A stretch of 20,000 bases of DNA from an uncultured virus (IMG/VR IMGVR_UViG_3300044637_001924) (Duplodnaviria; Heunggongvirae; Uroviricota; Caudoviricetes), in IMG/VR virus record IMGVR_UViG_3300044637_001924; one strand, written 5' to 3'. Made by a program: the position numbers and the translations under genes. The notes beneath the pieces were generated by a model. The model worked only from the letters and a program-made list of their open reading frames with translations. It had not been told where the DNA came from and did no database searches. Shown one piece after another: positions 3,678 through 19,601 of this stretch (position 1 is the first letter of the stretch; each line of letters starts with the position of its first letter).

Positions 3678-3679
3678 GC

Positions 3680-5804: not shown

Positions 5805-5807
5805 GGG

Positions 5808-6350
5808 TTACTTTACTACCACTAACTGAATGTAGACTTCGTCGATTATGTTACAGTGCTGTTCAAGATACTGCTCTACCTGTTCTTTAGGTTGCCCCAC
5901 AAATTGATCTTTGTATTTTTCCATGGGTCGCAAGCTGTAGTCCACCACCTCAAAATCCACATTGTAGCGTTCGGCAAGCCTACTGGCATGTGCACCTTGC
6001 TTGCGTGCCAATTGGTTGTATTTGCAGCCAAACAAGCGCAAGCCATCTACAGTGACTGGGCGTTTGTGCGTGGGGTCGCTGAAGAAGTCATCACTGCGGT
6101 GATGAGGTACATGAATATGTACTCTTGCCCCAGGTTTGCACACTCGATAAATTTCCTGCAGACAGTGAAAATACCCCTCGCCCAAGTGCTCTAACACATG
6201 AGTGGCTCTCAACACATCTACACTGTTGGTGGGAAATGGGAAAATGTCTTTTTCAAGGTCAAAACAAAAATCAGGATTGCAGTTGGGATCGTAGTCACAG
6301 TGCACATATCCATCAATCCTGTCTTCACCTGCGCCAATATAGATTTTCAT
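5808..6350 (-). CDS. Small class I SAM methyltransferase (Methyltransf_11-like)
   Basis: KIYIGAG, FPFPTNSVD, HVLEHL, EIYRVCKPGA and DPTH motifs; ATGA overlap with the upstream gene. Confidence 0.85.
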   Translation of the reverse strand: MKIYIGAGEDRIDGYVHCDYDPNCNPDFCFDLEKDIFPFPTNSVDVLRATHVLEHLGEGYFHCLQEIYRVCKPGARVHIHVPHHRSDDFFSDPTHKRPVTVDGLRLFGCKYNQLARKQGAHASRLAERYNVDFEVVDYSLRPMEKYKDQFVGQPKEQVEQYLEQHCNIIDEVYIQLVVVK

Positions 6351-7951
6351 TGTGATTTCTCCAAAAGCTGTCCATTCAACATCAGTGCGGCAACGCTGTC
6401 ATTGGTTTCAAAAAATCTCAAACTCTGTTCAGGAGTTTCCATAATGGGCTCTCCAGCGCCATTCAAGCTGGTGTTGCACAGCACAGGAACGCCTGTCAAT
6501 TGATGGTAACAAGTGAGCAGTTGGTGCAACTGGGGATTTTGTTCAGCTGTAACAGTTTGCGGGCGTGCACTGTTGTCCACATGACACACTGCTGGAATCA
6601 GTTGCGGCTTCAGCACTTGTGCAGTGTAAAGCATGTAGGGGCTCGAGGGTATTGGCAAGGAGAACCAATCGTGGGCGTGTTCCTGCAACACCACAGGCGC
6701 AATAGGTCGAAACCATTCTCTGTTTTTCACTGCGAAATTTATTTTCTCACGCATGTGATAGCTTTGTGCATCAGCCAAAAGACTTCTGTGGCCCAGTGCT
6801 CGAGGCCCATATTCGCTTCTGCCCCAGTGCCAGGCCACTATAGCTCCTTGAGCCAGTAGCTCACAAACTCTAGTGTAGTCCACAATGGAGGTAGTGTTTT
6901 GAGAAGGTCCCAAATAACATAAATTCTGCGGTTGATAATTTTGCCTTGGTAAGTCAAACAAATGGTGCGCTACCCAAAGAGCGGCGCCCACCGCATTGCC
7001 GTCATCGCCACATGCAGGAAAGTGATGAATGCCCTCCCAAAGCTTGCTTTCAGCTATCCGGCTGTTCAAGATGCAGTTCAGCATGCTGCCACCACTGAGG
7101 CATAACTGTCGTTGCGGATAAATTTGGTGCAGTGTAGCTAGTGTTTCCAGAACACTCTTCTCCAGTAGCTCTTGAATAGTAGCAGCCAAATCACTGCTTT
7201 CCTTGTGTGTGAGCTCATGTGGGTGCTTGGCAATGAGTTTTTCCCACACATTGCTCCAGAACTTCCTGTATTCCAACTCAGCGTGTTCTTGAACACTGAA
7301 CCATTGTTTTTTCAAAATCTCATCAAAAATAGGGCCAGTGAGTGATTTACCATAACTGCTGAGTCCCATGGTGGTGCCTGCCTTGCTGTAGGCTGGGGAG
7401 AAACCCAACAGCTCGGTGAAGATGGCATACCCAATACCTGAGATGAGTGTTGGGCACATTTGAGCTTGAAGCTTAGTGCCTTCACCAAAAAACACCATGT
7501 TGTTGTCGCCAAGTTCGCCAAAACTGCTGTCTAAGCTGAAACAAATGGCCTTATCAAAATTGCTAGTGTAGTAGGCACTGCTGGCATGCGCCAAATGATG
7601 TGGCAGCACATACACTGGTATTTTGTGGCTGCCGAGGAAAACACCTGTAAGCGTTCGCACGTCGTTGTTGTAGAGTGAGTAGGCAGTTCTCTCCACAGTG
7701 TTGCCATCACTGTCATATAGTGCCAAGACACCGTTGCTGTGGTTGGCCTTGTAGTCAGCCAATGCTATGCAACTGATGTCCTCAGGTTTAAGTGAAGCTT
7801 CCTGAAGTATAGCCTCAATTGTTTTGTTGGTTACACCAAAAGCCTTTTTTTCTCTAGTAACACGTTCTGTTCCCAAAGCTGCTGTTAATCTGCCATTTTT
7901 CACAACTGCCACAGCACCGTCGTGAGAAAAATTCATTCCCAATATGTTCAT
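6347..7951 (-). CDS. Carbamoyltransferase, NodU/CmcH/TobZ family
   Basis: SHDGAVAVVKNG, HHLAHASSAYY, LSGGSMLNCILN, PACGDDGNAVGAA, GRSEYGPRALGHRS, KNREWFRPIAP, HVDNSARPQTV and NTSLN..GEPI. Confidence 0.95.
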   Translation of the reverse strand: MNILGMNFSHDGAVAVVKNGRLTAALGTERVTREKKAFGVTNKTIEAILQEASLKPEDISCIALADYKANHSNGVLALYDSDGNTVERTAYSLYNNDVRTLTGVFLGSHKIPVYVLPHHLAHASSAYYTSNFDKAICFSLDSSFGELGDNNMVFFGEGTKLQAQMCPTLISGIGYAIFTELLGFSPAYSKAGTTMGLSSYGKSLTGPIFDEILKKQWFSVQEHAELEYRKFWSNVWEKLIAKHPHELTHKESSDLAATIQELLEKSVLETLATLHQIYPQRQLCLSGGSMLNCILNSRIAESKLWEGIHHFPACGDDGNAVGAALWVAHHLFDLPRQNYQPQNLCYLGPSQNTTSIVDYTRVCELLAQGAIVAWHWGRSEYGPRALGHRSLLADAQSYHMREKINFAVKNREWFRPIAPVVLQEHAHDWFSLPIPSSPYMLYTAQVLKPQLIPAVCHVDNSARPQTVTAEQNPQLHQLLTCYHQLTGVPVLCNTSLNGAGEPIMETPEQSLRFFETNDSVAALMLNGQLLEKSQ

Positions 7952-7954
7952 AAC

Positions 7955-8785
7955 TTAGTATAATAGCCATTTGTCCTGAGAAATCAAATAATCACGTAAA
8001 TGTAAATATCCCTTCATCATGGTGTGAAATTTCAATAATTGCCCTTGCATGGTGTTTTTGTTGTAGTCAATTTTTTCCAAATGTTCAAAGTAGAAGAGGC
8101 ATTCTTGTTCGCTGAGATACAAAGGTGCGTTGTACCAACCATGAAATCCCAATGCTGAGGTGTAACCAGTGAGCACTTCTGCACAGAATTTTAAGCTGAT
8201 ATGTGCTGGAGCGAATCGAATGTTGTAGGCAGTTTCAAGGTAATTCTGGTTGAGCAGTGTAATCACAGCATCCTCACTGATGAAGGGCGTGTTGTGATTG
8301 GGGGTGTAGTTCCGGGTTTTGATCTGGGGATCTTCAGCTAGGATTTTGAGGAGGCGACGGCTTCGCAAGCTTAATCCTCCGCCACAGGTGAACCAATCTG
8401 CGTTTTTAAATTCTTGGTAGTGGCCACTGGCTTGCAGGCTGCCTTTCATTGGCGGAAATTCAGGATGCGAGAGGCTGCCCACGTAATCATATTCAAAATA
8501 TTCATCAGTCCAGGCTTTGGGGTTTGTGGCTATGCCATCATAGTGTGCTATCAACACAAAATCAGTGTTGATGTAGCTGTGCATGCTCTTGAGGCAGAAA
8601 TCACAGTATTCCAGCATGCCAAAGTTTTCTGGAATTGGATATTGTGTATGGGGTTGTGCAAGAGTTAATGGTTGATCTGACACCACAATTGTGGTGGTGA
8701 TCGGTGTAGAGGCAAGGGTTTTTTGAAGTGAGAAACTAGTGAGTTCGTGCTGGATGTTTGTGATGGTGAATAGAGTAAGGGTCAT
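7955..8785 (-). CDS. DUF5672-like putative glycosyltransferase
   Basis: YINTDFVLIAHYDG, WTDEYFEYDYVG, GGGLSLRSRRLL, EDAVI, RFAP and GFHG match the DUF5672 pattern. Confidence 0.75.
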   Translation of the reverse strand: MTLTLFTITNIQHELTSFSLQKTLASTPITTTIVVSDQPLTLAQPHTQYPIPENFGMLEYCDFCLKSMHSYINTDFVLIAHYDGIATNPKAWTDEYFEYDYVGSLSHPEFPPMKGSLQASGHYQEFKNADWFTCGGGLSLRSRRLLKILAEDPQIKTRNYTPNHNTPFISEDAVITLLNQNYLETAYNIRFAPAHISLKFCAEVLTGYTSALGFHGWYNAPLYLSEQECLFYFEHLEKIDYNKNTMQGQLLKFHTMMKGYLHLRDYLISQDKWLLY

Positions 8786-8817
8786 CCAGTAAGCTTAGTT
8801 GGCGATTTGACTGTGTG

Positions 8818-10167
8818 CTAGTTATAGCACTGGAGAATTGCAGCCGTCATGGAACCGGCCGAAGTTTGACACCACGCGGTGCTGCTGCTTATTTCTCTCA
8901 CCGGACTTGAGCGATTGGTAACAGTGTTATCTCCTAACACACCGCAATCGTTAAATCCCCAAGTCCAAAGTGTGCCATCTGTCTTTATTGCAGTGTTGTG
9001 ATTACTACCAGCTGAAGTTTGACACCAAGTGGTGGAATTGGTGATTTCTCTCCCTGGACTTGATAGTAGACCTGTGTTGTTGATTCCTAACTGCCCACAC
9101 TGGTTAAATCCCCAACTCCAAAGTGTGCCATCTGTTTTTATTGCACTAGTCCAGGCGCTTGCCGAAGTTTGACACCAAGTGGTGCTGCTGCTTATTTCTC
9201 TCACCGGACTTGAGCGATTGGTAACAGTGTTATCTCCCAACTGCCCACACCTATTACACCCCCAACTCCAAAGTGTGCCATCTGTCTTTACTGCACTGAT
9301 GGTAATACCTTTACCAGCTGATGTTTGACGCCAAGTGGTGGAACTGGTGATTTCCCTTACAGGACTTGAGCGATTGGTAACAGTGGTGTCTCCTAACATA
9401 CCGCAATAGTTATTTCCCCAACTCCAAAGTGTACCATCTGTTTTTAATGCACTGGTGTGAAAACTACCACTTGATGTTTGACACCAAGTGGTTGAACTGG
9501 TGATTTCTCTCACTGGACTTGAGCGACTTGTAACAGTGTTATCTCCCAATCTGCCACACCCGTTATATCCCCAAGTCCAAAGTGTACCATCTGTTTTTAA
9601 TGCACTGTTGTGAGAATTACCAGCTGAAGTTTGACACCAAGTAGTTGAACTGGTGATTTCCCTTACAGGACTTGAGCGACTTGTAACAGTGTTGACTCCC
9701 AACTGACCCTGGACATTGTATCCCCAAGTCCACAGTGTGCTATCTGTTTTTATTGCACTAGTGAAGGCGCTGCCTGCCGAAGTTTGACACCAAGTGACAG
9801 AACTGGTGATTTCTCTCACTGGACTTGAGCGACTTGTAACAGTGTTGTCTCCTAACGGACCGCATATATTACGACCCCAAGTCCACATCTGTCTAAGAGG
9901 CCAATCTCGACGTAAAACCCTACCATCCAATCCCACCCATGAAGTACAAGTGGATATTACAGGTACACAAATACTTTTGACAAAAACTGTTTGACCAAAA
10001 CCTATGCACTTTGTAGCTAGGTCAGGTAAGTCTGATACTGTGTTAACAACAAAACTAATGCCAACTCCAGCAGCACTGGTTTGGGCTGCTAACAAAGGAA
10101 AACAAACACTGTCGCAAGCAGTTATTAATGAGTCAATACTAGTTTGGATTTCAGAGGGTGTTGGCAT
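8818..10167 (-). CDS. RCC1/BLIP-II-like 7-bladed beta-propeller protein, N-terminal class C (copy C2); putative virion adhesin
   Basis: Seven W(S/T)WGxNxxGxLGDNTVTxRSSPVREITSSTTWCQTSAGxxxTSAIKTDGTL repeats; GGAG SD upstream of ATG 10167. Confidence 0.9.
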   Translation of the reverse strand: MPTPSEIQTSIDSLITACDSVCFPLLAAQTSAAGVGISFVVNTVSDLPDLATKCIGFGQTVFVKSICVPVISTCTSWVGLDGRVLRRDWPLRQMWTWGRNICGPLGDNTVTSRSSPVREITSSVTWCQTSAGSAFTSAIKTDSTLWTWGYNVQGQLGVNTVTSRSSPVREITSSTTWCQTSAGNSHNSALKTDGTLWTWGYNGCGRLGDNTVTSRSSPVREITSSTTWCQTSSGSFHTSALKTDGTLWSWGNNYCGMLGDTTVTNRSSPVREITSSTTWRQTSAGKGITISAVKTDGTLWSWGCNRCGQLGDNTVTNRSSPVREISSSTTWCQTSASAWTSAIKTDGTLWSWGFNQCGQLGINNTGLLSSPGREITNSTTWCQTSAGSNHNTAIKTDGTLWTWGFNDCGVLGDNTVTNRSSPVREISSSTAWCQTSAGSMTAAILQCYN

Positions 10168-10180
10168 GTTCTGTCTCCAT

Positions 10181-11521
10181 TTACTTCAAGGCACTGGTGT
10201 GAAAACCACCAGCTGATGTTTGACGCCAAGTGGTGGAACTGGTGATTTCCCTTACAGGACTTGAGCGATTGGTAACAGTGGTGTCTCCCAACTGACCAGA
10301 GCCATTGCCGCCCCAAGTCCAAAGTGTGCCATATATTTTTAATGCACTGGTATGTATCCACCCGACAGAAGTTTGACACCAAGTGGTGGAACTGGTGATT
10401 TCCCTTACAGGACTTGAGCGATTGGTAACAGTGGTGTCTCCCAACTGACCAGAGCCATTGTATCCCCAAGTCCACAGGGAGCCATCTGTTTTTATTGCAG
10501 CGGTATGGATACCAGCTGAAGTTCGACACCAATTGGTGCTGTTGGTAATTTCTATGTTTGGATTTGAACTATTAGTGATGGTGTTGTTTCCCAGCTGGCC
10601 CGACCCGTTTTCTCCCCAAGTCCAAAGTGTGCCATTTGTTTTTATTGCAGCAGTATTCGTAGGGCCTGCTGAAGTTTGACACCAAGTGGTTGAACTGCTA
10701 CTTTCTCTCACTGGACTTGACTTAGCCGTAACAGTGTTGTCTCCCAACTGACCCCAACCGTTCCAGCCCCAAGTCCAAAGTGTGCCATCTGTTTTTAATG
10801 CACTGGTATGGCTGCCGCTGTTAAACCCGCCTGACGAAGTTTGACACCAAGTAGTTGAGCTGGTGATTTCTCTCACTGGGCTTGAGCGACTAGTGACAGT
10901 GTTGTTTCCCAGCGTACCACAGGATGCATTTCCCCAACTCCAAAGTGTGCTATCTGTTTTCAATGCGCTTGTGTGGGCATTACCAGCTGAAGTTTGACAC
11001 CAAGTGGTTGAGCTTGTGATTTCCCTTACAGGACTTGAGCGACTTGTAACAGTGTTATCTCCCAACTGACCAGAGACATTGTAGCCCCAAGTCCACAGTG
11101 TGCTATCTGTTTTTATTGCACTAGTCCTACCACCGTTGGCAGCGGCGGCTGAAGTTTGACACCAAGTGGTGGAACTGGTGATTTCTCTCACTGGACTTGA
11201 GCGACTAGTGACAGTGTTGTCTCCTAACCGACCACACCCGTTAAAGCCCCAACTCCAAATTTGGTTTAGGGGAGTAGTACCTATAACACCCCATCCCGTA
11301 ACTGTGGCCACATACAGTGAGGTATTCAACACAACATAATACAATTCACCCACATTTGCGGCGGCTGTTGGTAAATCAGTCACTGCGTTCACCACATACA
11401 CCTTGCCGCTTCTCAACTGCTGCAATACCTTGCTGTAGTAAAACAAATCCTGCTCATTAGTAGTGCTGGATATTTTTTGCTGCATTGTGAACACTAGATT
11501 AGCTACATTGATGGTAGACAT
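10181..11521 (-). CDS. RCC1-like 7-bladed beta-propeller protein, N-terminal class B (copy B2)
   Basis: Seven repeats. ATG at 11521 overlaps the TGA of the upstream gene; the track start at 11524 is a TTG. Confidence 0.9.
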   Translation of the reverse strand: MSTINVANLVFTMQQKISSTTNEQDLFYYSKVLQQLRSGKVYVVNAVTDLPTAAANVGELYYVVLNTSLYVATVTGWGVIGTTPLNQIWSWGFNGCGRLGDNTVTSRSSPVREITSSTTWCQTSAAAANGGRTSAIKTDSTLWTWGYNVSGQLGDNTVTSRSSPVREITSSTTWCQTSAGNAHTSALKTDSTLWSWGNASCGTLGNNTVTSRSSPVREITSSTTWCQTSSGGFNSGSHTSALKTDGTLWTWGWNGWGQLGDNTVTAKSSPVRESSSSTTWCQTSAGPTNTAAIKTNGTLWTWGENGSGQLGNNTITNSSNPNIEITNSTNWCRTSAGIHTAAIKTDGSLWTWGYNGSGQLGDTTVTNRSSPVREITSSTTWCQTSVGWIHTSALKIYGTLWTWGGNGSGQLGDTTVTNRSSPVREITSSTTWRQTSAGGFHTSALK

Positions 11522-12882
11522 CAAAGGAATCCTTTGCAGGTTAGGATTTTTAAGGCACTAATATGGGCAGATGCCGAAGTTTGAAACCAAGTAGTAAAAC
11601 TGCTGATTTCTCTTACTGGACTTGAGCGACCAGTTGTTGTGTTGTCTCCCAACTGACCATACTGGTTCCGGCCCCAATTCCAAAGTGAACCATCGGTTTT
11701 CAATGCACTGACTGTCTGATTTCTGGAAGTTGAGGTTCGACACCAATTATTGCTGCTGGTGATTTCTCGCCCTGGTACTCCAGTACATGCGGTGGTGTTG
11801 TTTCCCAACACACCACAACTGCCGTACCCCCAGGTCCAAAGTGTGCCATCTGTTTTTACTGCGGTGCCGGCATTGGAACCTGAGGCAGTTTGACACCAAG
11901 AAGTACTAGAGAGGGCTTCTCTCACTGGACTTGATCTATTGGTTGAGGTTCCGTCTCCCAATGTACCGCAGAAATTGCGTCCCCAAACCCACAATGTGGA
12001 GTCTGTTTTCACTGCACTGGATACTTGACTTCCAGGGGAAGTTTGGCACCAATTGGTGGAACTGGTGATTTCTCTCACTGGACTTGACCGCGTATTGGTG
12101 GAGTTGTCTCCTAACTGACCCCAAATACCACATCCCCAAGTCCATAGTGAACCATCTGTTTTAACTGCACTAGCTATGCTCGCACCAAAGGCAATTTGGC
12201 ACCAATTGCTGCTGCTGCTGATTTCTCTTACCGGACTTGAGCGACTTGTTGTTGTGTTATCGCCCAACTGCCCACAGAGATTGAGTCCCCACACCCAAAG
12301 TGTGCCATCAGTTTTTATTGCACTAGTGGGACTATTACTACCAGCCGCAGTTTGGCACCAATTACTGCTGCTGCTGATTTCTCTTACGGGACTTGAGCGA
12401 CTTGTTGTTGTGTTGTCTCCTAACGAACCACCCGTGTTATAGCCCCAACTCCAAAGCGAGCCATCTGTTTTTATTGCACTGGTGTGACCACCACCAGCCG
12501 AAGTTTGACACCAATTGCCGCTGTTGCTGATTTCTCTCACCGGACTTGACCGACAAGTAACAGTGTTGTCTCCCAACTGACCAAACCCATTGGCTCCCCA
12601 AGAAAAAACGCTGGGTTCAACACGCTGCACGATGCTTCGAAAGTCTGTTGTCCAACAAATGCCATCACTGACGCGATACTGGCAAGTGTCTTGTAGATAC
12701 ACCATCCTTCCTTGATTCAAGGTCGCAGTGGGCAAAGCAGCGAGATTGGAAAAAGAAACCACTGCTTGAGTGTCGAGAATACATTGTGCACCCTGCAACT
12801 GACAACAGCTTAATGGAGTAAGCCCACCTGCTGCCAAACGTGAAGTAATTTGTGTTTGTAGTGTTTTTGCTGATGTGGTCAT
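11521..12882 (-). CDS. RCC1-like 7-bladed beta-propeller protein, N-terminal class A (copy A2)
   Basis: Seven repeats. Start revised to ATG 12882 (MTTSAKTL), 1 nt after the upstream TAA. Confidence 0.9.
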   Translation of the reverse strand: MTTSAKTLQTQITSRLAAGGLTPLSCCQLQGAQCILDTQAVVSFSNLAALPTATLNQGRMVYLQDTCQYRVSDGICWTTDFRSIVQRVEPSVFSWGANGFGQLGDNTVTCRSSPVREISNSGNWCQTSAGGGHTSAIKTDGSLWSWGYNTGGSLGDNTTTSRSSPVREISSSSNWCQTAAGSNSPTSAIKTDGTLWVWGLNLCGQLGDNTTTSRSSPVREISSSSNWCQIAFGASIASAVKTDGSLWTWGCGIWGQLGDNSTNTRSSPVREITSSTNWCQTSPGSQVSSAVKTDSTLWVWGRNFCGTLGDGTSTNRSSPVREALSSTSWCQTASGSNAGTAVKTDGTLWTWGYGSCGVLGNNTTACTGVPGREITSSNNWCRTSTSRNQTVSALKTDGSLWNWGRNQYGQLGDNTTTGRSSPVREISSFTTWFQTSASAHISALKILTCKGFL

Positions 12883-12883
12883 G

Positions 12884-14257
12884 TTATTGCGGAACAACTA
12901 ATATAGTTTTAATAGCACTAGTATCCACTTTACCAGCCGAAGTTTGACACCAAGTGGTGCTGCTGGTGATTTCTCTCACTGGACTTGATCGATTGGTAAT
13001 AGTGTTGTCTCCCAACTGACCACACAAATTGCCTCCCCAAGTCCAAAGTGTACCATCTGTTTTTAATGCACTGTTATTGACACAACCAGCCGAAGTTTGA
13101 CACCAAGTGGTGCTGCTGGTGATTTCTCTCACTGGACTTGAGCGACCAGTTGTTGTGTTGTCTCCCAACTGACCACACCCGTTAGAGCCCCAACTCCAAA
13201 GAGCGCCATCTGTTTTTATTGCAGACGCGTGCCGATATCCAACTGATGTTTGACACCAAGTAGTGCTGCTGCTGGCTTCTCTCACTGGACTTGACCGGTT
13301 TGTTGTTGTGTTGTCTCCCAACTGCAAACCTCCTCCCCAACTCCAAAGTGTGCCGTCTTTTTTTATAGCACTAGTGCTTATACCACCAGCTGAAGTTTGA
13401 CACCAAGTGGTGCTGCTGGTGATTTCTCTTACAGGACTTGACTTACTTGTAGCAGTGTTGTCTCCCAATCGACCATAGCCGCCGGAGCCCCAACTCCAAA
13501 GTGTGCCATCTGTTTTTACTGCACTGGCAGTATAATTACTGGATGCTGTTTGACACCAAGTGGTGCTGCTGGTGATTTCTCTTACTGGGCTTGAGCGATT
13601 GGTAATAGTGTTGTCTCCCAACTGACCAGAGGCATTGCTGCCCCAACTCCAAAGTGAACCATCTGTTTTTATTGCATGTGTACTTCTGTTATCAGACGTA
13701 GTTTGACACCAAGTGGTGCTGCTGGTGATTTCTCTTACAGGACTTGACTTACTTGTAGCAGTGTTGTCTCCCAATCGACCGTAGTTGCCTCTGCCCCAAC
13801 TCCAAAGTGTGCCATCTGTTTTTAATGCACTGGTATGATAAAAGCCAGCTGAAGTTTGACACCAAGTGGTGCTGCTGGTGATTTCTCTTACTGGGCTTGA
13901 GCGATTGGTAATAGTGTTGTCTCCCAATCGACCGTTGTTGTTGCCGCCCCAACTCCAAAGAGCTCCTCCCACTGTAGGAGTGAAATTCCTGCCATCAAAA
14001 CCAATCCAACAGCCATTGAGGCTCACTACGGGCACAAGTGCATCGCACAAAAAAACAACATGCCCATTTGGTAACCCAGTTGAACAACTGCAACCAAATA
14101 AGGTATCTATGCTGATGAAACTACTCCGATTACTGTCAACAGCGTCTTGTGATGCTGCTGCTAACACCACATCCATACTGCATGTGAGTGTGCCACTTGA
14201 GCATATTTCGCTCACCACAGAGTTGAGAAGTGTTGCACAGCAGAGGTTATTGGCCAT
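12884..14257 (-). CDS. RCC1-like 7-bladed beta-propeller protein, N-terminal class C (copy C1)
   Basis: Seven repeats; AAGGA SD upstream; Cys-rich N-terminus. Confidence 0.9.
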   Translation of the reverse strand: MANNLCCATLLNSVVSEICSSGTLTCSMDVVLAAASQDAVDSNRSSFISIDTLFGCSCSTGLPNGHVVFLCDALVPVVSLNGCWIGFDGRNFTPTVGGALWSWGGNNNGRLGDNTITNRSSPVREITSSTTWCQTSAGFYHTSALKTDGTLWSWGRGNYGRLGDNTATSKSSPVREITSSTTWCQTTSDNRSTHAIKTDGSLWSWGSNASGQLGDNTITNRSSPVREITSSTTWCQTASSNYTASAVKTDGTLWSWGSGGYGRLGDNTATSKSSPVREITSSTTWCQTSAGGISTSAIKKDGTLWSWGGGLQLGDNTTTNRSSPVREASSSTTWCQTSVGYRHASAIKTDGALWSWGSNGCGQLGDNTTTGRSSPVREITSSTTWCQTSAGCVNNSALKTDGTLWTWGGNLCGQLGDNTITNRSSPVREITSSTTWCQTSAGKVDTSAIKTILVVPQ

Positions 14258-14268
14258 CTTGCGCTTCC

Positions 14269-14919
14269 TTAACCACCACTCACTAGATTGGGCACGTTGC
14301 CTACCACTAACACTTCCAACTCCTCTATAGTGGTTGAGGCAGTGATTTCATCATCTTTGAGTTTTTCCCAGTCAAATGTGGCTTGAATATGCGCTGCACC
14401 AGCAGCGACGCATTGGCCTAATTCATCTTTTGTGAGAGTGAGCCAAGTTTCCGGAAACTTCCAATTCACTGTTTCATCAGTTGCCATAAGAGAGTATTTT
14501 TGCACAAAAATGTTCCTACCTTCTCTGCTAGTGTCAATAGTAACTTTTTTACCTTGTATCACAGTGTGTGTGCCACCCACTTCAGCAGTGTAGCGATTGG
14601 CTTGTGCCTCGTCTCGCAACTGAGCTTGTATCTCCCAAATTTGCTTGTATTTGATCTCAAATGTACCAACGGCAATTGCAGGATTAGTGAAATCCCAGAA
14701 CGGACCATAATAGGTTTGTGTTCGAGAGTTATGATCGGGTATCACCAGCTGTGCTGTGGTCAAATAGGTGGCATCGTCTATCACAATAGGAACGGTTTCA
14801 GGGTCATTGCGCGGCAGCAATGCTGAAATCTTAAGGCGGTCCAGACCGCCTTCAAACATTGGCCTATTCCAACTCATTGGACCTACCAACACTCTTTCGT
14901 TATGTACTAACACATACAT
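14269..14919 (-). CDS. DUF4376-domain phage tail-fibre-associated protein
   Basis: C-terminal RYTAEVGG...IDTSREGR...VNWK...WLTLTKDEL...HIQATFDWE...ITASTTIEEL is typical of DUF4376; AAGGA SD. Confidence 0.75.
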   Translation of the reverse strand: MYVLVHNERVLVGPMSWNRPMFEGGLDRLKISALLPRNDPETVPIVIDDATYLTTAQLVIPDHNSRTQTYYGPFWDFTNPAIAVGTFEIKYKQIWEIQAQLRDEAQANRYTAEVGGTHTVIQGKKVTIDTSREGRNIFVQKYSLMATDETVNWKFPETWLTLTKDELGQCVAAGAAHIQATFDWEKLKDDEITASTTIEELEVLVVGNVPNLVSGG

Positions 14920-14936
14920 ATTTTATTCCTTTTATC

Positions 14937-16256
14937 TTAAATTGTTTGCCGGGCTACAGTAAACAGGCCCTGTCCTATGCTAACTTCACTCCAGGAGCTT
15001 GAACTGGATATTTCACGTATAGGCAATAAACTTCTGATTGTAGAGTTGTTACCAAGTTGGCCACAATTGTTATTACCCCACATCCATAAAGTGCTTGCGG
15101 TTGTTAAAGCGCCACTTCTGCCAAAGCCGGCAGTGACTTGGCACCAATTGGTTGCACTTGTTGCTTCCTGAATTGGTGAGCTCCTGGATACAGTAGAGTT
15201 GTCTCCTAAAGCACCACAAGCGTTGCAACCCCATGCCCATAGTGTGTTAGTTGTTTTTAAGGCAATAGAGTGAGCAAACCCAGCGGAAGTTTGACACCAA
15301 GTGGTGGAGCTACTTATCTCTTGAACGGGACTTGATACATTGCTAGTGCTATTATTGCCAAATTTGCCACACTCGTTTGACCCCCATCCCCATAAAGTAC
15401 CACTTGTTTTGAGTGCTAGGGTACCGTAGAGGCCGGCAGAAACTTGACACCAATTGGTTGAACTGGAAATTTCTCGCACAGGACTAGACCTATTAGACAG
15501 ATTGCATGTGCCCAGTTGCCCAGTCCCATTATTTCCCCAACCCCAAAGGGTTCCATCTGTTTTTAGTGCAGCAGTATGCGAATATCCAGGTGAGGTTTGG
15601 CACCAAGTGGCACTGCTGCTGATTTCACGCACTGGGCTAGATTTGTTAACTATAGTGTTATCACCCACTTGGCCATATGTGTTCTTTCCCCATGCCCACA
15701 AACTGCCATCACTTTTAACACCAGACATTGTGTAAAAAGACGTACCTATTTGACACCAAGTTGTGCTGCTGGTGATTTCTCTTACAGGACTTGACTTACT
15801 GGTAACAGTGTTGTCTCCCAACTGACCACATACGTTATTGCCCCAAAGCCATAAGGAACTATCCTGTTTTAACCCCATTGAATTTACCGAACCAGCTCTG
15901 AGTTGCAGCCAGTTGCAGGAGCTTGTAATCTCTCTGACAGGACTTGATTGATTGGTTGTATTACTTGTGCCCAATTGTCCACAACTGTTTGACCCCCACG
16001 CCCAACCTGTGTTAGACTGTGATACAATAGGAATCCAAAATACAGAATTACTGAAAACTACTCTTTGAGCGTCTTCAACCAAATACAATTTACCATTGCT
16101 GGCTGATGCAGTAGGTAATAATTGAGAACAGGCTACAACAAACATAGCGCCTGTTCTCAGTTGTTGAATAGCCCGTGTATATGTGAGCAAATCTAGATTG
16201 TCGTTGCCTGCTGCGATTTTTTGGCTAAGGGCAAATTCAATTTGATTTAAGTTCAT
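14937..16256 (-). CDS. RCC1-like 7-bladed beta-propeller protein, N-terminal class B (copy B1)
   Basis: Seven more-diverged repeats; ATGA overlap with the upstream gene. Confidence 0.9.
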   Translation of the reverse strand: MNLNQIEFALSQKIAAGNDNLDLLTYTRAIQQLRTGAMFVVACSQLLPTASASNGKLYLVEDAQRVVFSNSVFWIPIVSQSNTGWAWGSNSCGQLGTSNTTNQSSPVREITSSCNWLQLRAGSVNSMGLKQDSSLWLWGNNVCGQLGDNTVTSKSSPVREITSSTTWCQIGTSFYTMSGVKSDGSLWAWGKNTYGQVGDNTIVNKSSPVREISSSATWCQTSPGYSHTAALKTDGTLWGWGNNGTGQLGTCNLSNRSSPVREISSSTNWCQVSAGLYGTLALKTSGTLWGWGSNECGKFGNNSTSNVSSPVQEISSSTTWCQTSAGFAHSIALKTTNTLWAWGCNACGALGDNSTVSRSSPIQEATSATNWCQVTAGFGRSGALTTASTLWMWGNNNCGQLGNNSTIRSLLPIREISSSSSWSEVSIGQGLFTVARQTI

Positions 16257-17602
16257 AGTGCTACAAATCCTGAAATTTTACCTTGAATGGCCATTGTTTG
16301 CCTTGTACTGCTAGTTACACAACTCCACGACGTGGCTGATGTTATCTCTCTCACAGGACTGGAAACTGATGTAACTGTGTTGTTCCCCAACGCGCCACAT
16401 GATGCATTTCCCCAGGTCCACAATGTGCCATCTGTTTTTAACGCCGCGGTATGCGCGCATCCACCAGATACTTGACACCAAGTTGTTGATGATGAAATTT
16501 CTTGTATAGGACTGCTCCGGCTGGTTGCAGTATTATTTCCCAGCTCTCCACATGTATTTAAACCCCATGCCCACAGAGTGCCATCGGTTTTTATAGCATT
16601 TGAATGATACTTGCCAGGCCCAAATGTGCACCAATTTGTAGAGCTGGAAACTTCTCGAACTGGGCTGCTGGCATTTGAGGTAGAGTTGTTACCGAGAACG
16701 CCATATCCACCTGAGCCCCAGCTCCAAAGTGTATTGTCTTTTTTCAACGCAACTGCTAGGTTGTAACCGTTTTGTATTCTGCACCAGGAGGTTCCGCTTG
16801 TTATTTCTCGCACTGGTGAACTGAAGTTAGTTGTGTTGTTGGTTCCCAGTACTCCACATGTGTTGACTCCCCAGGTCCACAGACTGCCATCAGACTTGAC
16901 AGCAGCAGAGTGTCGCAGCCCTCCACTGCTGATTGAACACCAATTTGTACTTGATGATACCTCGCGGATTGGAGAACTGCGGGTTGTTTTGGTGCCATCG
17001 CCCAAATTACCGCAAAAGTTGTCGCCCCATGCCCACAGTGTGCTATCACATTTTAAAGCCAAAAGATGGAACGCAAATGACCCTACACTTGTCCAGGTTG
17101 AAGAACTACTTATTTCACGAACTGGACTACTTTGGTTAGCTGTTGCATTATTGCCCAGTGCACCACAATTGTTGTAACCCCAAGTCCATAGTGAAAGGTC
17201 TGATTTTATTCCTGCTGATGTTGTATTGCTAGTGACAGTAACCCAATTGCAGCTTGAGCTTATTTCTCGAACAGGTGAACTCTGGGAAGTTGTTGTATTA
17301 TTGCCCAAACCTCCACAGAGGTTCCAACCCCACCCAAACACACATGCGCCTGTCCAATTTGTATTGAAGTCATTGGTCCATTGGGTGCCATCACTGTAGC
17401 GATAGTCGCCAATGTCCGTTATCCAAATAAACCTGCCTGTATTGTCACATGCTGTTGGCAATGCTGCACAATTTGCTACACAATAGATCCCATTCAAAGC
17501 CGCTTGAATACCTGCCAACTGAGCAGTTTGCAGAACATCTTGATTGGCCAAGACAATGCATGCGTTGGCTTGTGTGATGAGTTTGCCAGCAGCCACAGAC
17601 AT
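16253..17602 (-). CDS. RCC1-like 7-bladed beta-propeller protein, N-terminal class A (copy A1)
   Basis: Seven more-diverged repeats; starts 4 nt after the upstream stop. Confidence 0.9.
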   Translation of the reverse strand: MSVAAGKLITQANACIVLANQDVLQTAQLAGIQAALNGIYCVANCAALPTACDNTGRFIWITDIGDYRYSDGTQWTNDFNTNWTGACVFGWGWNLCGGLGNNTTTSQSSPVREISSSCNWVTVTSNTTSAGIKSDLSLWTWGYNNCGALGNNATANQSSPVREISSSSTWTSVGSFAFHLLALKCDSTLWAWGDNFCGNLGDGTKTTRSSPIREVSSSTNWCSISSGGLRHSAAVKSDGSLWTWGVNTCGVLGTNNTTNFSSPVREITSGTSWCRIQNGYNLAVALKKDNTLWSWGSGGYGVLGNNSTSNASSPVREVSSSTNWCTFGPGKYHSNAIKTDGTLWAWGLNTCGELGNNTATSRSSPIQEISSSTTWCQVSGGCAHTAALKTDGTLWTWGNASCGALGNNTVTSVSSPVREITSATSWSCVTSSTRQTMAIQGKISGFVAL

Positions 17603-17606
17603 GTGA

Positions 17607-17864
17607 TTAAGTCAGTGCCAACAAAGCTAGTGTTCGAGCAGTGTTGTCTTGGCCACCAAAACTGCCCCAAACTGTGCCGTCGTAGCCTTCAAAACTGGCT
17701 TGCGTAGTATTGTAACGGATTTGTCCTGTTGCTGCTGTTGGTCTTTCACCATCTGTGCCCACAGGCAATTTTAGTGCAGATGTGCCGCTGAAATTGGCAT
17801 ACCCAGTAATAGTCAAATTTTGGTTATCGGCGATGACTGTAACGCCTGATATTTTTATGGCCAT
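17607..17864 (-). CDS. 85-aa mini fibre/structural protein
   Basis: LKLPVGTDGERPTAATGQIRYNTTQASFEGYDGTVW matches the LPxGTxxxRP..G.IRYN...FEGY.G..W module common in T4-like phage fibre/virion proteins. Strong AAGGAG SD at 17872-17877. Confidence 0.8.
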   Translation of the reverse strand: MAIKISGVTVIADNQNLTITGYANFSGTSALKLPVGTDGERPTAATGQIRYNTTQASFEGYDGTVWGSFGGQDNTARTLALLALT

Positions 17865-17923: not shown

Positions 17924-18460
17924 TTAACTTTGATTTAGTCCCAAGTGTTTTTTCAATACTTCAATACTTTCGGCCTGCTCTTGCAATGCCTTCAACAACA
18001 GCGGTATCAACTGAATATATGCCACAGTTTTCCCTGACGCGGTTGTACTCACAAGAGATGGTATAACTTGCTCTACTTCTTGAGCCAATAAACCAAAACT
18101 GTGTTTGCTGGCATGCTTCCAGTCAAAACTAACGGGATTGAGTTCCTTGAGAATAGCCCAACTGTCGGTAATTGTTGAGATGTTTGTTTTGAACGCAGCA
18201 TCACTGATGCTGTTGAAGTCAACAGCAGCCACTTCACCAGTGCCAGGATTATAGGTGAATGCTGTTGCAGTGCTGCGTATCCTAGGAGTAGTGCTAGAGC
18301 CAGCAGTGTCCACAAAAACCGGATAAAATGTTGAATTTGTTGTGGTATTTGTAGCAGTAATTGAGGTTGAGCTGCCGGCTGTTCCGCTCCATCCACTAGT
18401 GCCAGAAAATCCACTTGTGCCCGCACCGCTAAATCCGCTCCATCCACTTGTTCCGCTCCA
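17924..18460 (-). pseudogene. Tail-fibre C-terminal remnant: Gly-X-Ser repeats plus a peptidase S74 intramolecular chaperone domain
   Basis: The frame is open upstream of the track's GTG 18313: WSGTSGWSGFSGAGTSGFSGTSGWSGTAGSSTSITATNTTTNSTFYPVFVDT. It continues into SDAAFKTNI...LNPVSFDWK...GLLAQEVEQVIPSLV...YIQLIPLLLKALQEQ (S74). No proper start or SD is visible. Confidence 0.75.
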
Positions 18461-18868
18461 GCTTTTGAATACACAGCTTATTCCTGCTCGGGGGTTGATT
18501 TCAAATGGTTGATTGAGAGCTCAAATTCAAAAATTTCTCTCTTGAGGCAGAAACACAACATCATTGTTGAGCAAAATTATGCGTTGACCTTTGGCTAGCT
18601 TGATAGCTAGATTGTTGGCACCACTTTATCCCAAGGGTTGATCACTCCATACAATTTGACAGTGATCAGCCATGCCAACACTGACAAATTGCTGTTGTAG
18701 ATCTTGTAGATAGTCACATTTGTTGTCTGTGCAACCATTGGCGCTGACTATCAATTCAACGTCAGTCATTTTGTTATGAGAGCAAAGGCTTGTAGTGCAA
18801 GGTTCTAACAAGTCATTGCAGTGGTTGTAGGTTGGTATGATAATAGAGTATTTGAATTGTAGAGTCAC
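18461..18868 (-). pseudogene. Truncated GT2 glycosyltransferase with three in-frame stops
   Basis: KYSIIIPTYNHCNDLL...ELIVSANGCTD...QPLG*SGANNLAIKLAKGQRIILLNNDVVFLPQERNF*I*ALNQPF...GISCVFKS. Stops are TAA 18626-18628, TGA 18527-18529 and TGA 18521-18523. Confidence 0.85.
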
Positions 18869-18874
18869 AACAAA

Positions 18875-18917: not shown

Positions 18918-19421
18918 CTACACGTTCATCTCCGGAAGGAATCCCGGAGGATAAGGATTCACTGATTCCACAGGAACAATGTGTAAACTAGGCCAAATAA
19001 TATTGAAAGGATCTTGTTGTGTTTGAGGTATATCAGCTAGTTCTTGAATATAGCGTTCGAGAGTGAGGATATCATCAATTGGAGTGAGACCCAATCTTAA
19101 GTATCGATTACAGCGTTCAACTCTCCATGCAACCGACTGAATAAGTATATCTCTCTGTTGTCGCACATCTTTCCATTTTGTCTGCTTCAGCATTTCAAGT
19201 TCTTCCAGGGTATATTCGGTCACTATCCACGCACCTGTGATATCATTCCACAACAATTTCTCATTGTCCTGTAGTTGAGGAGGATCACTTACAGGCACAT
19301 ATCCAGCATCATCAATTTCTTCTGGAGTGAAAGTGCTAGGATCAGTTCGTGTTCTACCATCTAATAGTCTTATCCTGAATGGCAACGACTGAGGCCATTG
19401 GTTTTTATAGGAATACAGCAT
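18918..19421 (-). CDS. Phage tail-fibre assembly chaperone-like protein (Phage_tail_APC/Tfa-like), 167 aa
   Basis: Start revised to ATG 19421 with AAGGAG SD at 19429-19434. C-terminus WKDVRQQRDILIQSVAW...YIQELADIPQTQQDPFNIIWP. Confidence 0.8.
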   Translation of the reverse strand: MLYSYKNQWPQSLPFRIRLLDGRTRTDPSTFTPEEIDDAGYVPVSDPPQLQDNEKLLWNDITGAWIVTEYTLEELEMLKQTKWKDVRQQRDILIQSVAWRVERCNRYLRLGLTPIDDILTLERYIQELADIPQTQQDPFNIIWPSLHIVPVESVNPYPPGFLPEMNV

Positions 19422-19601
19422 ATTATGTCTCCTTAAGTTCCTGAGAATCTTGGCATAGTAGTATTGATGAGACCTCCGAGATAGAGTTTTTGTTGTTGTT
19501 ATCAAGTGAGATACTATAAGCACTATTTTGCAATAGTGAATGATTGCAATAGTAATTGACTGCGACAGTAGTGATTGTCTTGACAAATATCATCTTGTAA
19601 T

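What the first reader, a model, noticed from the sequence alone, without database searches (positions are those of the whole stretch)
8830..13950. Antibody/VLR-like design: DNA-identical blade frameworks alternating with hypervariable loops
Seen by eye: framework tracts are identical at the nucleotide level. Examples are 13394-13474 = 13700-13780 (81 bp), 13548-13621 = 13854-13927 (74 bp; both at offset 306, a two-blade unit) and 10226-10307 = 10379-10460 (82 bp). The two flanking loops differ in almost every blade: after WG (RNIC, YNVQ, YNGC, NNYC, CNRC, FNQC, FNDC, WNGW, ENGS) and after WCQT (SAGSAF, SAGNSH, SAGKGITI, SAAAANGGR, SSGGFNSGSH, TSDNRS, SVGWIH), with indels and many aromatic residues. 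Inference: framework homogenisation combined with strong diversifying selection, or a targeted diversification mechanism, acting on one propeller face. This would give a phage binder repertoire with no DGR visible in this window.
Basis: partly seen in the sequence, partly recalled or inferred. Interest (0 to 1): 0.8.

Follow-up and report, generated by a model that had tools for sequence, protein, structure and literature searches.

The report
Phage propeller genes with homogenised frameworks
A giant lake-water phage carries six neighbouring genes for seven-bladed propeller proteins whose scaffolds are kept alike by copying between repeats while loops on one face stay different, which looks like a set of host-binding modules and needs no special mutation machine.

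Summary
The three quoted tracts are exact (82, 81, 74 nt). Long exact tracts exceed a site-rate null (4 pairs of 70 nt or more, 0 of 200 simulations). No two of the 42 blades share both loops.

The genes are six tandem RCC1-like seven-blade propellers (Pfam PF25390/PF00415; UVR8 4d9s E 4e-31). They lie in a tail-fibre neighbourhood of a roughly 420-kb lake jumbo phage.

Frameworks are homogenised by gene conversion. Propeller domains are closest within the genome (6 of 6), N-terminal domains across genomes (5 of 6). Among strain alleles, changes concentrate in the loops (65/336 sites) and columns 13-19 (62/294), against 50/1488 elsewhere in the blades. These positions align with UVR8 interface residues.

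A targeted mechanism is not supported. There is no reverse transcriptase in 180-329 kb contigs, no adenine bias, and the array is identical in seven assemblies. Sixteen other viral arrays show the same design.

New here: three N-terminal domain types in equal numbers in 7 of 7 arrays, predicted to bind (0.71, best control 0.00).

This scan has noted RCC1-like arrays before, on other phage DNA. Verdict: new variant of a known kind.

The parts
8818..10167 (-). g1: RCC1-like seven-blade propeller protein, 449 aa, N-terminal domain type A (9886-10167)
   Evidence: Pfam PF25390 4.1e-62 and PF00415 4.4e-50. Seven blades. N-terminal type.
10181..11521 (-). g2: RCC1-like propeller, 446 aa from the ATG at 11521 (a TTG at 11524 is also possible), N-terminal type B (11258-11521)
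   Evidence: Pfam PF25390 4.7e-67. The 446-aa form is the one on record. Blades.
11521..12882 (-). g3: RCC1-like propeller, 453 aa from the ATG at 12882 (the ORF is open to a TTG at 12897), N-terminal type C (12607-12882)
   Evidence: Pfam PF25390 1.2e-58. The 453-aa form is on record; the 458-aa form is not.
12884..14257 (-). g4: RCC1-like propeller, 457 aa, N-terminal type A (13958-14257). It holds the 306-nt two-blade unit with the 81- and 74-nt exact tracts.
   Evidence: Pfam. PDB UVR8 4d9s E 4.3e-31. AlphaFold2 model pLDDT 57, pTM 0.65. Foldseek top hits RCC1, UVR8 and HERC2, target-normalised TM 0.74-0.83.
14269..14919 (-). DUF4376 protein, 216 aa, a conserved gene inside the array
   Evidence: Pfam PF14301 1.3e-11. 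phrog_10508 'tail fiber protein' 8e-13. Homologues sit inside the arrays of L101, L087, L105, L093-L095, L103/L106, L068/L092 and others. S-SRM01 gp336 matches at E 8e-22.
14937..16256 (-). g5: RCC1-like propeller, 439 aa, N-terminal type B (16005-16256)
   Evidence: Pfam PF25390 1.4e-87. Blades.
16253..17602 (-). g6: RCC1-like propeller, 449 aa, N-terminal type C (17339-17602)
   Evidence: Pfam PF25390 3.2e-80. Blades.
13394..13474 (.). 81-nt exact tract, equal to 13700-13780 (blades g4b4 and g4b2, alignment columns 9-35)
13548..13621 (.). 74-nt exact tract, equal to 13854-13927 (blades g4b3 and g4b1, columns 11-35)
10226..10307 (.). 82-nt exact tract, equal to 10379-10460 (blades g2b7 and g2b6, columns 5-32). 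It includes most of loop 1.
9313..9393 (.). 81-nt exact tract shared between genes, equal to 10208-10288 (g1b4 and g2b7, columns 12-38)
17607..17864 (-). 85-aa ORF with a virion structural / baseplate-type motif, directly upstream of the array
   Evidence: phrog_6005 'virion structural protein' 1.8e-15 and phrog_32294 'baseplate wedge subunit' 9e-6
17924..18313 (-). 129-aa ORF equal to the C-terminal domain of large tail-fibre / baseplate proteins
   Evidence: phrog_18186 1.3e-28, phrog_8215 and phrog_5668 'tail fiber protein'. It matches the C-terminus of ORFs of 1,230 aa or more just upstream of related arrays.
18918..19586 (-). tail-fibre assembly chaperone-like protein, 222 aa
   Evidence: Pfam PF16778 Phage_tail_APC 3.4e-8. 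phrog_4912 'tail fiber assembly' 2.9e-9.

Best explanation
The region encodes six paralogous RCC1-like seven-bladed beta-propeller proteins (g1-g6). Each has a roughly 90-aa N-terminal domain of one of three ancient types, A, B or C. With one DUF4376 gene they form a conserved unit C-B-DUF4376-A followed by a second C-B-A. The unit lies just downstream of tail-fibre-type genes in a roughly 420-kb jumbo myovirus from lake water.

Shown: the blades evolve in concert. Stretches of 40-82 nt are copied between blades within and between genes, which keeps the scaffold alike. Three surface patches stay different in every blade and carry most of the differences between strains: loop 1 tip (columns 5-8), columns 13-19, and the loop 2 hairpin (columns 39-47).

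Inferred: all three patches lie in the strand 1-2 loop and the strand 3-4 hairpin. They therefore sit on one face of the propeller, the face that UVR8 uses as its interface. That face is a ligand-binding surface kept diverse by selection, while homology-dependent gene conversion homogenises everything between the patches.

Inferred: the proteins are virion-associated host-binding modules. They are joined through their N-terminal domains, possibly as C-B-A sets. No dedicated mutator such as a DGR is involved.
For: Identity. Pfam PF25390 scores 1e-57 to 1e-87 and PF00415 matches in all six genes. All 42 PF00415 matches of the genome fall in these genes. The best solved relative is UVR8 4d9s, E 4.3e-31. 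Foldseek top hits are RCC1 1i2m, UVR8 and HERC2.

Concerted evolution. Exact tracts exceed chance. Propeller best hits are within the genome for WIN 6/6, L068 6/6, L101 9/9 and L087 3/3. N-terminal best hits are within the genome for only 1/6, 0/6, 8/9 and 0/3. N-terminal pairing is g1-g4, g2-g5 and g3-g6, yet the propellers of g1, g2 and g4 are 70-72% alike, against 55% for g2-g5 and 53% for g3-g6. In the g2 allele P0127 the motif DNSVTDR / NNSVTDR replaces three different motifs in blades 1, 2 and 4.

Variable face. Entropy profile. Allelic polymorphism is 65/336 in loops, 62/294 in columns 13-19, 50/1488 in other blade sites and 48/581 in the termini. In the UVR8 alignment, column 5 pairs with the Trp that follows WG in blade 2. 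Columns 39 and 41 pair with the W and R of GWRHT. Passages of PMC4501546 place these residues at the dimer interface. The DSSP strand order of the model puts both loops two strands apart.

Virion or tail context. Flanking ORFs match tail-fibre and baseplate PHROGs and a tail-fibre assembly chaperone. The same RCC1-DUF4376-RCC1 order follows 'long tail fiber protein distal subunit' in the cultured cyanophage S-SRM01. phrog_4219 proteins W70_237-239 were found in purified virions (PMC11370258 passages), and g1 and g4-g6, the four scanned, match phrog_4219 at 1e-35 to 1e-37. GAP32 gp001 is likewise a virion protein (PMC5259590 passage).

N-terminal assembly. Types A, B and C are homologous (hhalign 98.9% and 95.3%). 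They occur in equal numbers in 7 of 7 arrays. The complex prediction scored 0.71 against a best control of 0.00. That mark was reached by 116 of 157 solved complexes and 2 of 215 mismatched pairs. The runs agree in at least 6% of contacts and partner pLDDT is at least 53.
Against: Selection on the loops is not proven. A full DNA comparison with the second strain was not possible: only 40 of 176 differences were listed. Those 32 codons give 24 nonsynonymous to 8 synonymous overall, close to neutral expectation by sites. The loop ratio of 10 to 1 rests on 11 codons.

At paralogue level, loop pN (0.57) exceeds framework pS (0.42) in g1-g4. Homogenisation of the framework alone would produce that. 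Synonymous diversity at conserved loop residues (N6 0.53, G9 0.33, G38 0.53) is similar to many framework sites.

Three related genomes have propeller best hits mostly outside their own genome (L103 1/6, L105 2/6, L094 0/6). This probably reflects close sister genomes in the set.

The structural model is weak (mean pLDDT 57; N-terminal 100 residues mostly under 50). No coordinates were available, so the one-face claim rests on alignment to UVR8 and on strand topology.

One of the three complex runs scored 0.01. The three chains are homologous to each other, so the pass cannot tell a heterotrimer from homotrimers.

No expression or virion data exist for this phage. RCC1-like domains also act inside cells.
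Confidence: 0.65

Rival explanations
1. Neutral mosaic. Gene conversion needs homology, so it keeps homogenising the already similar scaffold segments and stops at the old, diverged loops. The loops are simply unconstrained surface residues that drift. No diversifying selection and no binding repertoire are implied.
For: Tract ends vary (columns 5 to 23 on one side, 23 to 38 on the other) and lie between the loops, as expected if heterology stops them. Differences between sister blades in the loops include synonymous and multi-nucleotide changes, so the loops look old, not freshly mutated. Overall the 24 nonsynonymous to 8 synonymous codons between strains are close to neutral expectation. The same columns are variable across distant homologues in alignment A1.
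Against: None of the 42 blades shares both loops with another, although conversion tracts of up to 82 nt occur in a 153-nt unit. Allelic changes are 6.9 times denser in loops than in other blade sites and 2.7 times denser than in the N-terminal domains. Several loop sites carry three alleles. Variable positions are enriched in aromatic residues, 12.6% against 0.5% in the non-invariant framework.
Confidence: 0.25
2. Targeted diversification. A diversity-generating retroelement or another site-directed mutator rewrites the loops.
For: Variation is concentrated in short segments between conserved flanks. About a fifth of the genome is not covered by the contigs searched (CheckV 77% for the 328,603-bp contig).
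Against: No RVT_1 match at E up to 1 was found in the 180,697-, 328,603-, 309,756- or 223,007-bp contigs, while the control genomes did match. Mismatches between the closest blades have adenine in one copy in 8-48% of cases, not close to 100%. The array is identical in 7 assemblies from different samples. Run X1 showed no variant. The variants in X16 and X24 are fixed strain differences, with other_depth equal to all_depth, and include framework and N-terminal changes.
Confidence: 0.03
3. Intracellular effectors. The propellers are made to bind host proteins inside the infected cell, as BLIP-II or Legionella RCC1-repeat effectors do (recalled), or to condense phage DNA as older annotations suggest. 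They would not be virion host-recognition parts.
For: RCC1-like domains are general protein-binding scaffolds. The solved relatives bind Ran, COP1, PDE6D and other partners (titles). PHROGs file the family under 'DNA, RNA and nucleotide metabolism'. The phAPEC6 paper proposes a DNA-ordering role (PMC7247149 passage).
Against: The genes sit between tail-fibre-type ORFs and a DUF4376 'tail fiber' PHROG. That placement is conserved in related contigs and in S-SRM01. Family members were detected in purified virions of W70 and GAP32. A virion location does not exclude ejection into the cell.
Confidence: 0.2
4. Assembly artefact. The identical tracts come from collapsed or chimeric assembly of a repeat array.
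For: Public protein clusters hold shorter forms that lack one or two blades, with junctions inside the longest identical tracts: P0005, P0125, P0129 and P0138, all on contigs of 2-6 kb. Logan contigs break at the repeats.
Against: Seven assemblies give the same 8.8-kb array to the base. The longest exact tract is 82 nt. Contigs of run X1 cover all 30 bins with no differences.
Confidence: 0.01

Closest known systems
Multi-copy RCC1-like ('DNA condensation' / regulator of chromosome condensation) proteins of Rak2-like jumbo phages: phAPEC6 (11 copies), 121Q (13), PBECO4 (6), GAP32 gp001. Also W70_237-239 of Septuagintavirus.
   Same: Tandem paralogous RCC1-like seven-blade propellers in large myoviruses, in the same PHROG (phrog_4219). 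Members were found in purified virions (PMC11370258; PMC5259590). The function is unsolved (PMC7247149). The large terminase of this phage is about 49% identical to those of the jumbo phages Phosso, PA5oct and Atu_ph07.
   Different: The paralogues here do not share one short N-terminal tag; their first residues all differ. They carry roughly 90-aa N-terminal domains of three homologous types in equal numbers. They sit with a DUF4376 gene next to tail-fibre genes. The 12-residue tag of the coliphage arrays is known to me only from earlier notes of this scan.
HNWD / het-d, het-e WD40-repeat recognition genes of Podospora anserina (PMC1805685)
   Same: Beta-propeller repeats undergo concerted evolution within and between loci. 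A few positions per repeat at the interaction surface diversify, and repeat number varies (abstract read). The same three features are seen here, plus possible blade-number variants.
   Different: It is a different propeller family (WD40, not RCC1) in a eukaryotic NLR immune receptor. Positive selection was shown there by codon models; here it is only suggested. RIP has no counterpart here.
UVR8 (PDB 4d9s) and other solved RCC1-like domains (RCC1 1a12/1i2m, HERC2 RLDs, RPGR)
   Same: The closest solved relatives by sequence (E 4e-31 to 1e-18) and by fold. The variable columns 5 and 39/41 align with UVR8 interface residues.
   Different: No GWRHT triad is conserved; one blade has GYRH. No guanine-nucleotide-exchange features were examined. 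Identity is 18-27%. The phage proteins have an extra N-terminal domain.
RCC1-like genes of the cultured freshwater cyanophage S-SRM01 (NC_070963, gp335, gp337, gp344)
   Same: g1 is 48% identical to gp337 over the propeller. The gene order is the same: tail-fibre genes, RCC1, a DUF4376 homologue (gp336, E 8e-22), RCC1, then TPR, sulfotransferase and glycosyltransferase genes.
   Different: gp337 has only about 42 residues before the first blade, so it lacks the roughly 90-aa N-terminal domain. There are three annotated copies in that stretch, not a C-B-A set.
Diversity-generating retroelements acting on phage receptor-binding proteins (Bordetella phage BPP-1 Mtd; recalled)
   Same: The outcome is similar: a phage protein with a conserved scaffold and variable ligand-binding residues.
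   Different: No reverse transcriptase, no template repeat and no adenine-specific mismatches. Variation is spread over 42 repeats and is stable across samples.

Membership tests
RCC1-like beta-propeller (Pfam PF00415 / PF25390, IPR009091) | Seven tandem repeats of about 51 residues that match the RCC1 repeat model above its cut-off | tested here: met
   PF25390 scores 196-295 bits against a cut-off of 150, and PF00415 scores 140-168 bits against 21.7, in all six proteins. The genome has 42 matches, 40 of them over the cut-off. Repeat spacing is 49-55 aa.
RCC1-like beta-propeller (Pfam PF00415 / PF25390, IPR009091) | Seven-bladed propeller fold like solved RCC1-like domains | tested here: met
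   The AlphaFold2 model of g4 (pLDDT 57, pTM 0.65) matches 1i2m, 4d9s, 1a12 and 7q40 at Foldseek E 1e-22 to 1e-24, with target-normalised TM 0.74-0.83. Model confidence is only moderate.
RCC1-like beta-propeller (Pfam PF00415 / PF25390, IPR009091) | Guanine-nucleotide-exchange machinery of RCC1 proper (beta-wedge, Ran contacts) | not tested
   No residue-level comparison with the Ran-binding face was made. Membership is claimed for the fold family only, not for the enzyme.
Diversity-generating retroelement target | A reverse transcriptase encoded in the same genome | tested here: not met
   No PF00078 match at E up to 1 was found in G000 (180,697 bp) or in G001-G003 (328,603, 309,756 and 223,007 bp). 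Control genomes matched. The genome is not complete (CheckV 44-77%).
Diversity-generating retroelement target | Template and variable repeats that differ only where the template has adenine | tested here: not met
   In the seven closest blade pairs, 8-48% of mismatches have A (or T) in a given copy.
Concerted-evolution propeller repertoire (HNWD-like mode) | Repeats more alike within a genome than between orthologous genes of related genomes | tested here: met
   Propeller best hits are within the genome for WIN 6/6, while N-terminal best hits are within it for only 1/6. The same holds for L068 and L087. L101 keeps both within the genome. L103, L105 and L094 do not show it for the propellers (1/6, 2/6, 0/6).
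Concerted-evolution propeller repertoire (HNWD-like mode) | Exchange tracts between repeats beyond chance | tested here: met
   Four pairs have exact runs of 70 nt or more against 0.00 expected; 0 of 200 simulations reached this. One tract links g1 and g2.
Concerted-evolution propeller repertoire (HNWD-like mode) | Positive diversifying selection (dN/dS above 1) at a few surface positions | tested here: inconclusive
   Amino-acid polymorphism is 6.9 times denser in loop columns. DNA was available for only 32 changed codons: loops 10 N to 1 S, framework 6 to 3, termini 8 to 4.
Concerted-evolution propeller repertoire (HNWD-like mode) | Variable repeat number between alleles | tested here: inconclusive
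   P0005 and P0125 lack two blades; P0129 and P0138 lack one. The junctions lie in the identical tracts, but all are on 2-6 kb contigs and may be mis-assemblies.
Leader-tagged RCC1-like arrays of Asteriusvirus / Rak2-like coliphages | All paralogues begin with the same short N-terminal peptide | tested here: not met
   The six proteins start differently. Instead they share a roughly 90-aa domain in three types. The coliphage tag itself was not compared; it is known only from earlier notes.
Virion-associated phage RCC1-like proteins (phrog_4219) | Presence in purified virus particles | not testable with these tools
   The family match is 1e-35 to 1e-37 for g1 and g4-g6, the four scanned. Virion detection is reported for W70_237-239 and GAP32 gp001, not for this phage.

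The most novel reading that the evidence does not exclude
The conserved unit C-B-DUF4376-A encodes a heterotrimeric 'tri-propeller' adhesin. One chain of each N-terminal type joins through its roughly 90-aa domain, so that three different seven-blade faces (21 blades, about 60 variable patches) form one composite host-binding head on the tail. Extra C-B-A sets (two here, three in L101) would give a virion alternative heads. Gene conversion would keep the scaffolds exchangeable while selection keeps every face different. That would be a recombination-driven receptor-binding repertoire in phages that works without a DGR.
Probability: 0.25. Interest if true: 0.75.

Novelty: new variant of a known kind. 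Interest (0 to 1): 0.45.

Why it matters
RCC1-like paralogue arrays are among the most conspicuous unexplained gene families of jumbo phages. They are still annotated as 'chromosome condensation' proteins.

This array and 16 related viral arrays show three things. The family evolves like a recognition repertoire: the scaffold is homogenised by gene conversion and variation is confined to one face. It sits in the tail-fibre module. In this lineage it comes in fixed A:B:C sets whose N-terminal domains are predicted to bind each other.

If confirmed, this would re-assign the family from DNA packaging to host recognition. It would also add a retroelement-free way for phages to keep many binding specificities. 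The cultured relative S-SRM01 makes the idea testable. If the loops merely drift, the finding is an ordinary repeat-protein family with concerted evolution.

Tried and rejected
DGR or other targeted mutator: rejected (see the rival explanations).

Near-identical DNA in the phage collection: none found by megablast.

DNA of the second strain. A viral-contig scan with g4 found only identical copies. The single metagenome-contig scan, with g3, found one distant locus. A full codon-level dN/dS between strains was therefore not possible.

Read laying used Logan contigs only. Minority variants cannot be seen, 136 of 176 differences were not listed, and the joints had short sides of 20-36 nt typical of repeats. 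These were not used as evidence. No RNA holder was listed.

N-terminal domain. No Pfam family at E up to 1 in 13 members. ESM Atlas hits scored 0.81-0.83, below the level that means anything; one was a 'phage tail like trimerisation region' cluster, which is a lead only. hhalign of type C against the neighbouring 85-aa ORF gave probability 8%, so they are unrelated.

Literature false leads. PMC12906663 ('RCC1' there means Roscoff culture numbers). PMC10218006 ('rcc1' there is a locus tag).

Searches for phage RCC1-like receptor-binding or concerted evolution found nothing on this point. Only listings and the named passages were read.

A link between Cys at column 8 and Cys at column 33 was considered. 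It was not pursued, because the two columns lie towards opposite faces.

Full report
**What is in the window**

The minus strand between 8818 and 17602 carries six ORFs of 439-458 aa. A 216-aa ORF lies between the fourth and fifth. All six match the RCC1-like domain PF25390 (1e-57 to 1e-87, above the 150-bit cut-off) and the RCC1 repeat PF00415. A genome-wide search finds 42 RCC1 repeat matches, all in these six genes. Anchoring on the W-x-W-G motif divides each protein into seven blades of 49-55 residues after a unique N-terminal stretch of 84-100 residues.

By sequence the best solved relative is the plant photoreceptor UVR8 (4d9s, E 4.3e-31), followed by the HERC1/2, RCC1 and RPGR propellers. 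An AlphaFold2 model of g4 is only moderately confident (pLDDT 57, pTM 0.65). Even so, it matches RCC1, UVR8 and HERC2 structures at Foldseek E 1e-22 to 1e-24, with target-normalised TM 0.74-0.83.

**The genome**

The window is part of a 180,697-bp IMG/VR virus record rated 44% complete. Contigs of up to 328,603 bp from other samples carry the same array and are rated 77% complete. The genome is therefore roughly 420 kb.

Its large terminase is about 49% identical to those of the jumbo phages Phosso, PA5oct and Atu_ph07. All 24 public runs listed as holding the stretch are lake-water metagenomes.

**Check of the observation**

The three quoted identities are exact and maximal. A fourth 81-nt tract links g1 and g2.

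I tested the tracts against a null that keeps each blade pair's number of differences and places them according to per-site variability. Runs of 70 nt or more are expected in 0.00 pairs and observed in 4. None of 200 simulations reached this.

Entropy is highest at alignment columns 5, 7, 8, 10 and 39, 41, 42, 47. Loop 1 is distinct in 40 of 42 blades and loop 2 in 42 of 42.

The wording 'DNA-identical frameworks' is too strong as a general statement. The closest blades are 81-89% identical. Framework synonymous difference averages 0.42 in g1-g4 and is saturated, at 0.79, in g5 and g6.

The tracts are not assembly errors. Five contigs from other metagenomes match the window perfectly over 17,114 bp. 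A sixth has four mismatches, all outside the array.

**How the frameworks come to be alike**

Three results point to gene conversion between repeats, that is, concerted evolution.

- The exact tracts have variable ends, between columns 5-23 and 23-38, and occur both within and between genes.
- The N-terminal domains fall into three types, with g1 like g4, g2 like g5 and g3 like g6. Each finds its best match in another phage genome at the corresponding position (5 of 6). The propeller domains find their best matches among their own neighbours (6 of 6). One gene history cannot give both results, so the propellers were homogenised after the paralogues arose. The pattern recurs in L068 and L087. 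It is absent in L103, L105 and L094, whose propellers match other genomes best, probably close sisters in the set.
- Homogenisation is visible between strains. In the g2 allele P0127 the same DNSVTDR-type motif replaces three different motifs in blades 1, 2 and 4. g4 alleles swap similar patches.

**Where the variation lies**

Public protein clusters hold alleles of all six genes. Taken over all alleles, the sites that differ from the window are distributed as follows:

| Region | Variable sites | Total sites |
|---|---|---|
| Loop columns | 65 | 336 |
| Other blade sites | 50 | 1488 |
| Termini | 48 | 581 |

Loop columns against other blade sites give an odds ratio of 6.9 (p 2e-21).

Two runs hold a second strain that is 1-3% diverged. 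One run is identical to the window. Of the 40 differences the tool listed, out of 176, the 32 affected codons split as follows:

| Region | Nonsynonymous | Synonymous |
|---|---|---|
| Loops | 10 | 1 |
| Framework | 6 | 3 |
| Termini | 8 | 4 |

This fits diversifying selection on the loops. The sample is small and the overall ratio is near neutral, so relaxed constraint is not excluded.

**One face**

The model's strands are L-W-x-W-G, V-R-E-I-T, W-C-Q-T-S-A and H-T-S-A-L-K. Loop 1 with columns 13-19 follows the first strand and loop 2 follows the third. In an up-and-down antiparallel blade, both therefore emerge on the same side. This is an inference from topology.

Independently, the UVR8 alignment pairs column 5 with the Trp that follows W-G in blade 2. 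It pairs columns 39 and 41 with the W and R of the GWRHT motifs. Passages of PMC4501546 place W94, W233/W285/W337 and R286/R338 at the UVR8 dimer interface. Equating the blade-2 Trp with W94 rests on my count along the alignment and on recalled numbering.

Variable positions are richer in aromatic residues than the non-invariant framework, 12.6% against 0.5%.

**No targeted mutator**

- No reverse transcriptase domain was found in four contigs of 180-329 kb. These appear to extend differently on either side of the array (contig ranges), so together they probably cover most of the genome.
- Mismatches between sister blades show no adenine rule.
- The array is fixed across seven assemblies.

Loop differences between sister blades include synonymous and triple-nucleotide changes. 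This looks like old divergence left behind by conversion, not fresh point mutation.

**Context and likely role**

Directly upstream lie three ORFs:

- an 85-aa ORF with a virion/baseplate PHROG match;
- a 129-aa ORF equal to the C-terminal domain of large tail-fibre proteins;
- a tail-fibre assembly chaperone-like gene.

The gene inside the array is a DUF4376 / 'tail fiber' PHROG protein. Its homologues sit inside the arrays of at least ten related viral contigs.

The cultured cyanophage S-SRM01 has the same order. Baseplate and long-tail-fibre genes come first, then an RCC1 gene, a DUF4376 homologue (E 8e-22) and a second RCC1 gene (48% identical to g1). TPR, sulfotransferase and glycosyltransferase genes follow, as in the window.

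Members of the same PHROG were detected in purified virions of phage W70 (PMC11370258, passages). A related protein was detected in GAP32 virions (PMC5259590, passage). phAPEC6 has eleven copies of unknown function (PMC7247149, passage).

I therefore read the six proteins as virion-associated binding modules. That is an inference from context, not shown for this phage.

**The N-terminal domains**

The three types are homologous over about 80 residues (hhalign 98.9% and 95.3%) and have no Pfam family. The gene orders are:

| Arrays | Order |
|---|---|
| Window and L103 | C, B, DUF4376, A, C, B, A |
| L105, L094 and L068 | C, B, B, DUF4376, A, C, A |
| L101 | C, B, DUF4376, A, C, B, A, C, B, A |
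| L087 | C, B, DUF4376, A |

A, B and C are equal in number in 7 of 7 arrays.

A complex prediction of the three domains of g3, g2 and g1 scored 0.71 (runs 0.71, 0.75 and 0.01) against a best control of 0.00. That mark was reached by 116 of 157 solved complexes and 2 of 215 mismatched pairs. The runs agree in at least 6% of contacts and partner pLDDT is at least 53. Because the chains are homologous, this supports oligomerisation but cannot separate hetero- from homo-trimers.

**Comparison and novelty**

Blades were extracted from 16 other viral arrays. Framework identity among blades is 0.49-0.80. Identity at the variable positions is 0.09-0.28, with one recent duplicate at 0.55. Exact tracts reach 55-122 nt in ten of the sixteen. 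The design is therefore a property of the family, not of this window.

The closest described evolutionary mode is that of the WD40 repeats of the Podospora het-d/het-e family. There, concerted evolution combines with positive selection at four surface residues (PMC1805685, abstract).

My searches found no paper describing this mode, or a receptor-binding role, for phage RCC1-like arrays (listings and named passages only).

Earlier notes of this scan record RCC1-like arrays in coliphages with a shared 12-residue tag. The present array lacks such a tag and has the three-type domain instead.

I rate it a new variant of a known kind, of moderate interest. The heterotrimer reading is the most novel possibility left open.

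Noticed in passing
window 17924-18900: The ORF at 17924-18313 is only the C-terminal domain of a tail-fibre-type protein. Related contigs have ORFs of 1,230 aa or more ending in this domain. Upstream, at 18313-18480, the reading frame continues through Gly/Ser/Trp-rich repeats. Further upstream the sequence is broken by stops. By eye that stretch contains what looks like a glycosyltransferase fragment, but no search was run on it. It may be the remnant of a larger fibre gene.
   Followed up: partly
proteins P0005, P0125, P0129, P0138 (alleles of g4, g1, g2, g4): Public clusters hold forms lacking one or two blades. In each, loop 1 of one blade is joined to loop 2 of a later blade, inside the longest identical tracts. 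These are either unequal crossing-over products or assembly collapses. All are on 2-6 kb contigs.
   Followed up: partly
window 154-8785: Downstream of the array lies a run of sugar-modification-type genes. They include a Nol-like carbamoyltransferase (6347-7951), methyltransferases (5808-6350, 1846-2511) and a DUF5672 protein (7955-8785). A 272-aa ORF (3680-4498) matches phrog_27463 (function unknown), and a ParA/Mrp-like ATPase lies at 154-939. S-SRM01 has annotated TPR, sulfotransferase and glycosyltransferase genes after its RCC1 genes.
   Followed up: partly
blade alignment columns 8 and 33 (all six genes): Cysteine is frequent at two fixed positions per blade: column 8 in 24 of 42 blades and column 33 in 34 of 42. 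That gives a dozen or so Cys per protein. Whether they pair or bind metal is unknown.
   Followed up: no
L082/L083 1-14270; L069 1-9730: Other viral contigs encode single giant ORFs packed with RCC1-like blades: 65 blade matches in a 4,756-aa ORF and 45 in a 3,243-aa ORF.
   Followed up: no
window 8800-17650 in runs X16 and X24: A second strain of the same phage, 1-3% diverged, is present in some lake samples. Its protein alleles match P0002 and P0095. Four mismatches in contig L009 cluster in the ORF at window 4229-4382.
   Followed up: partly
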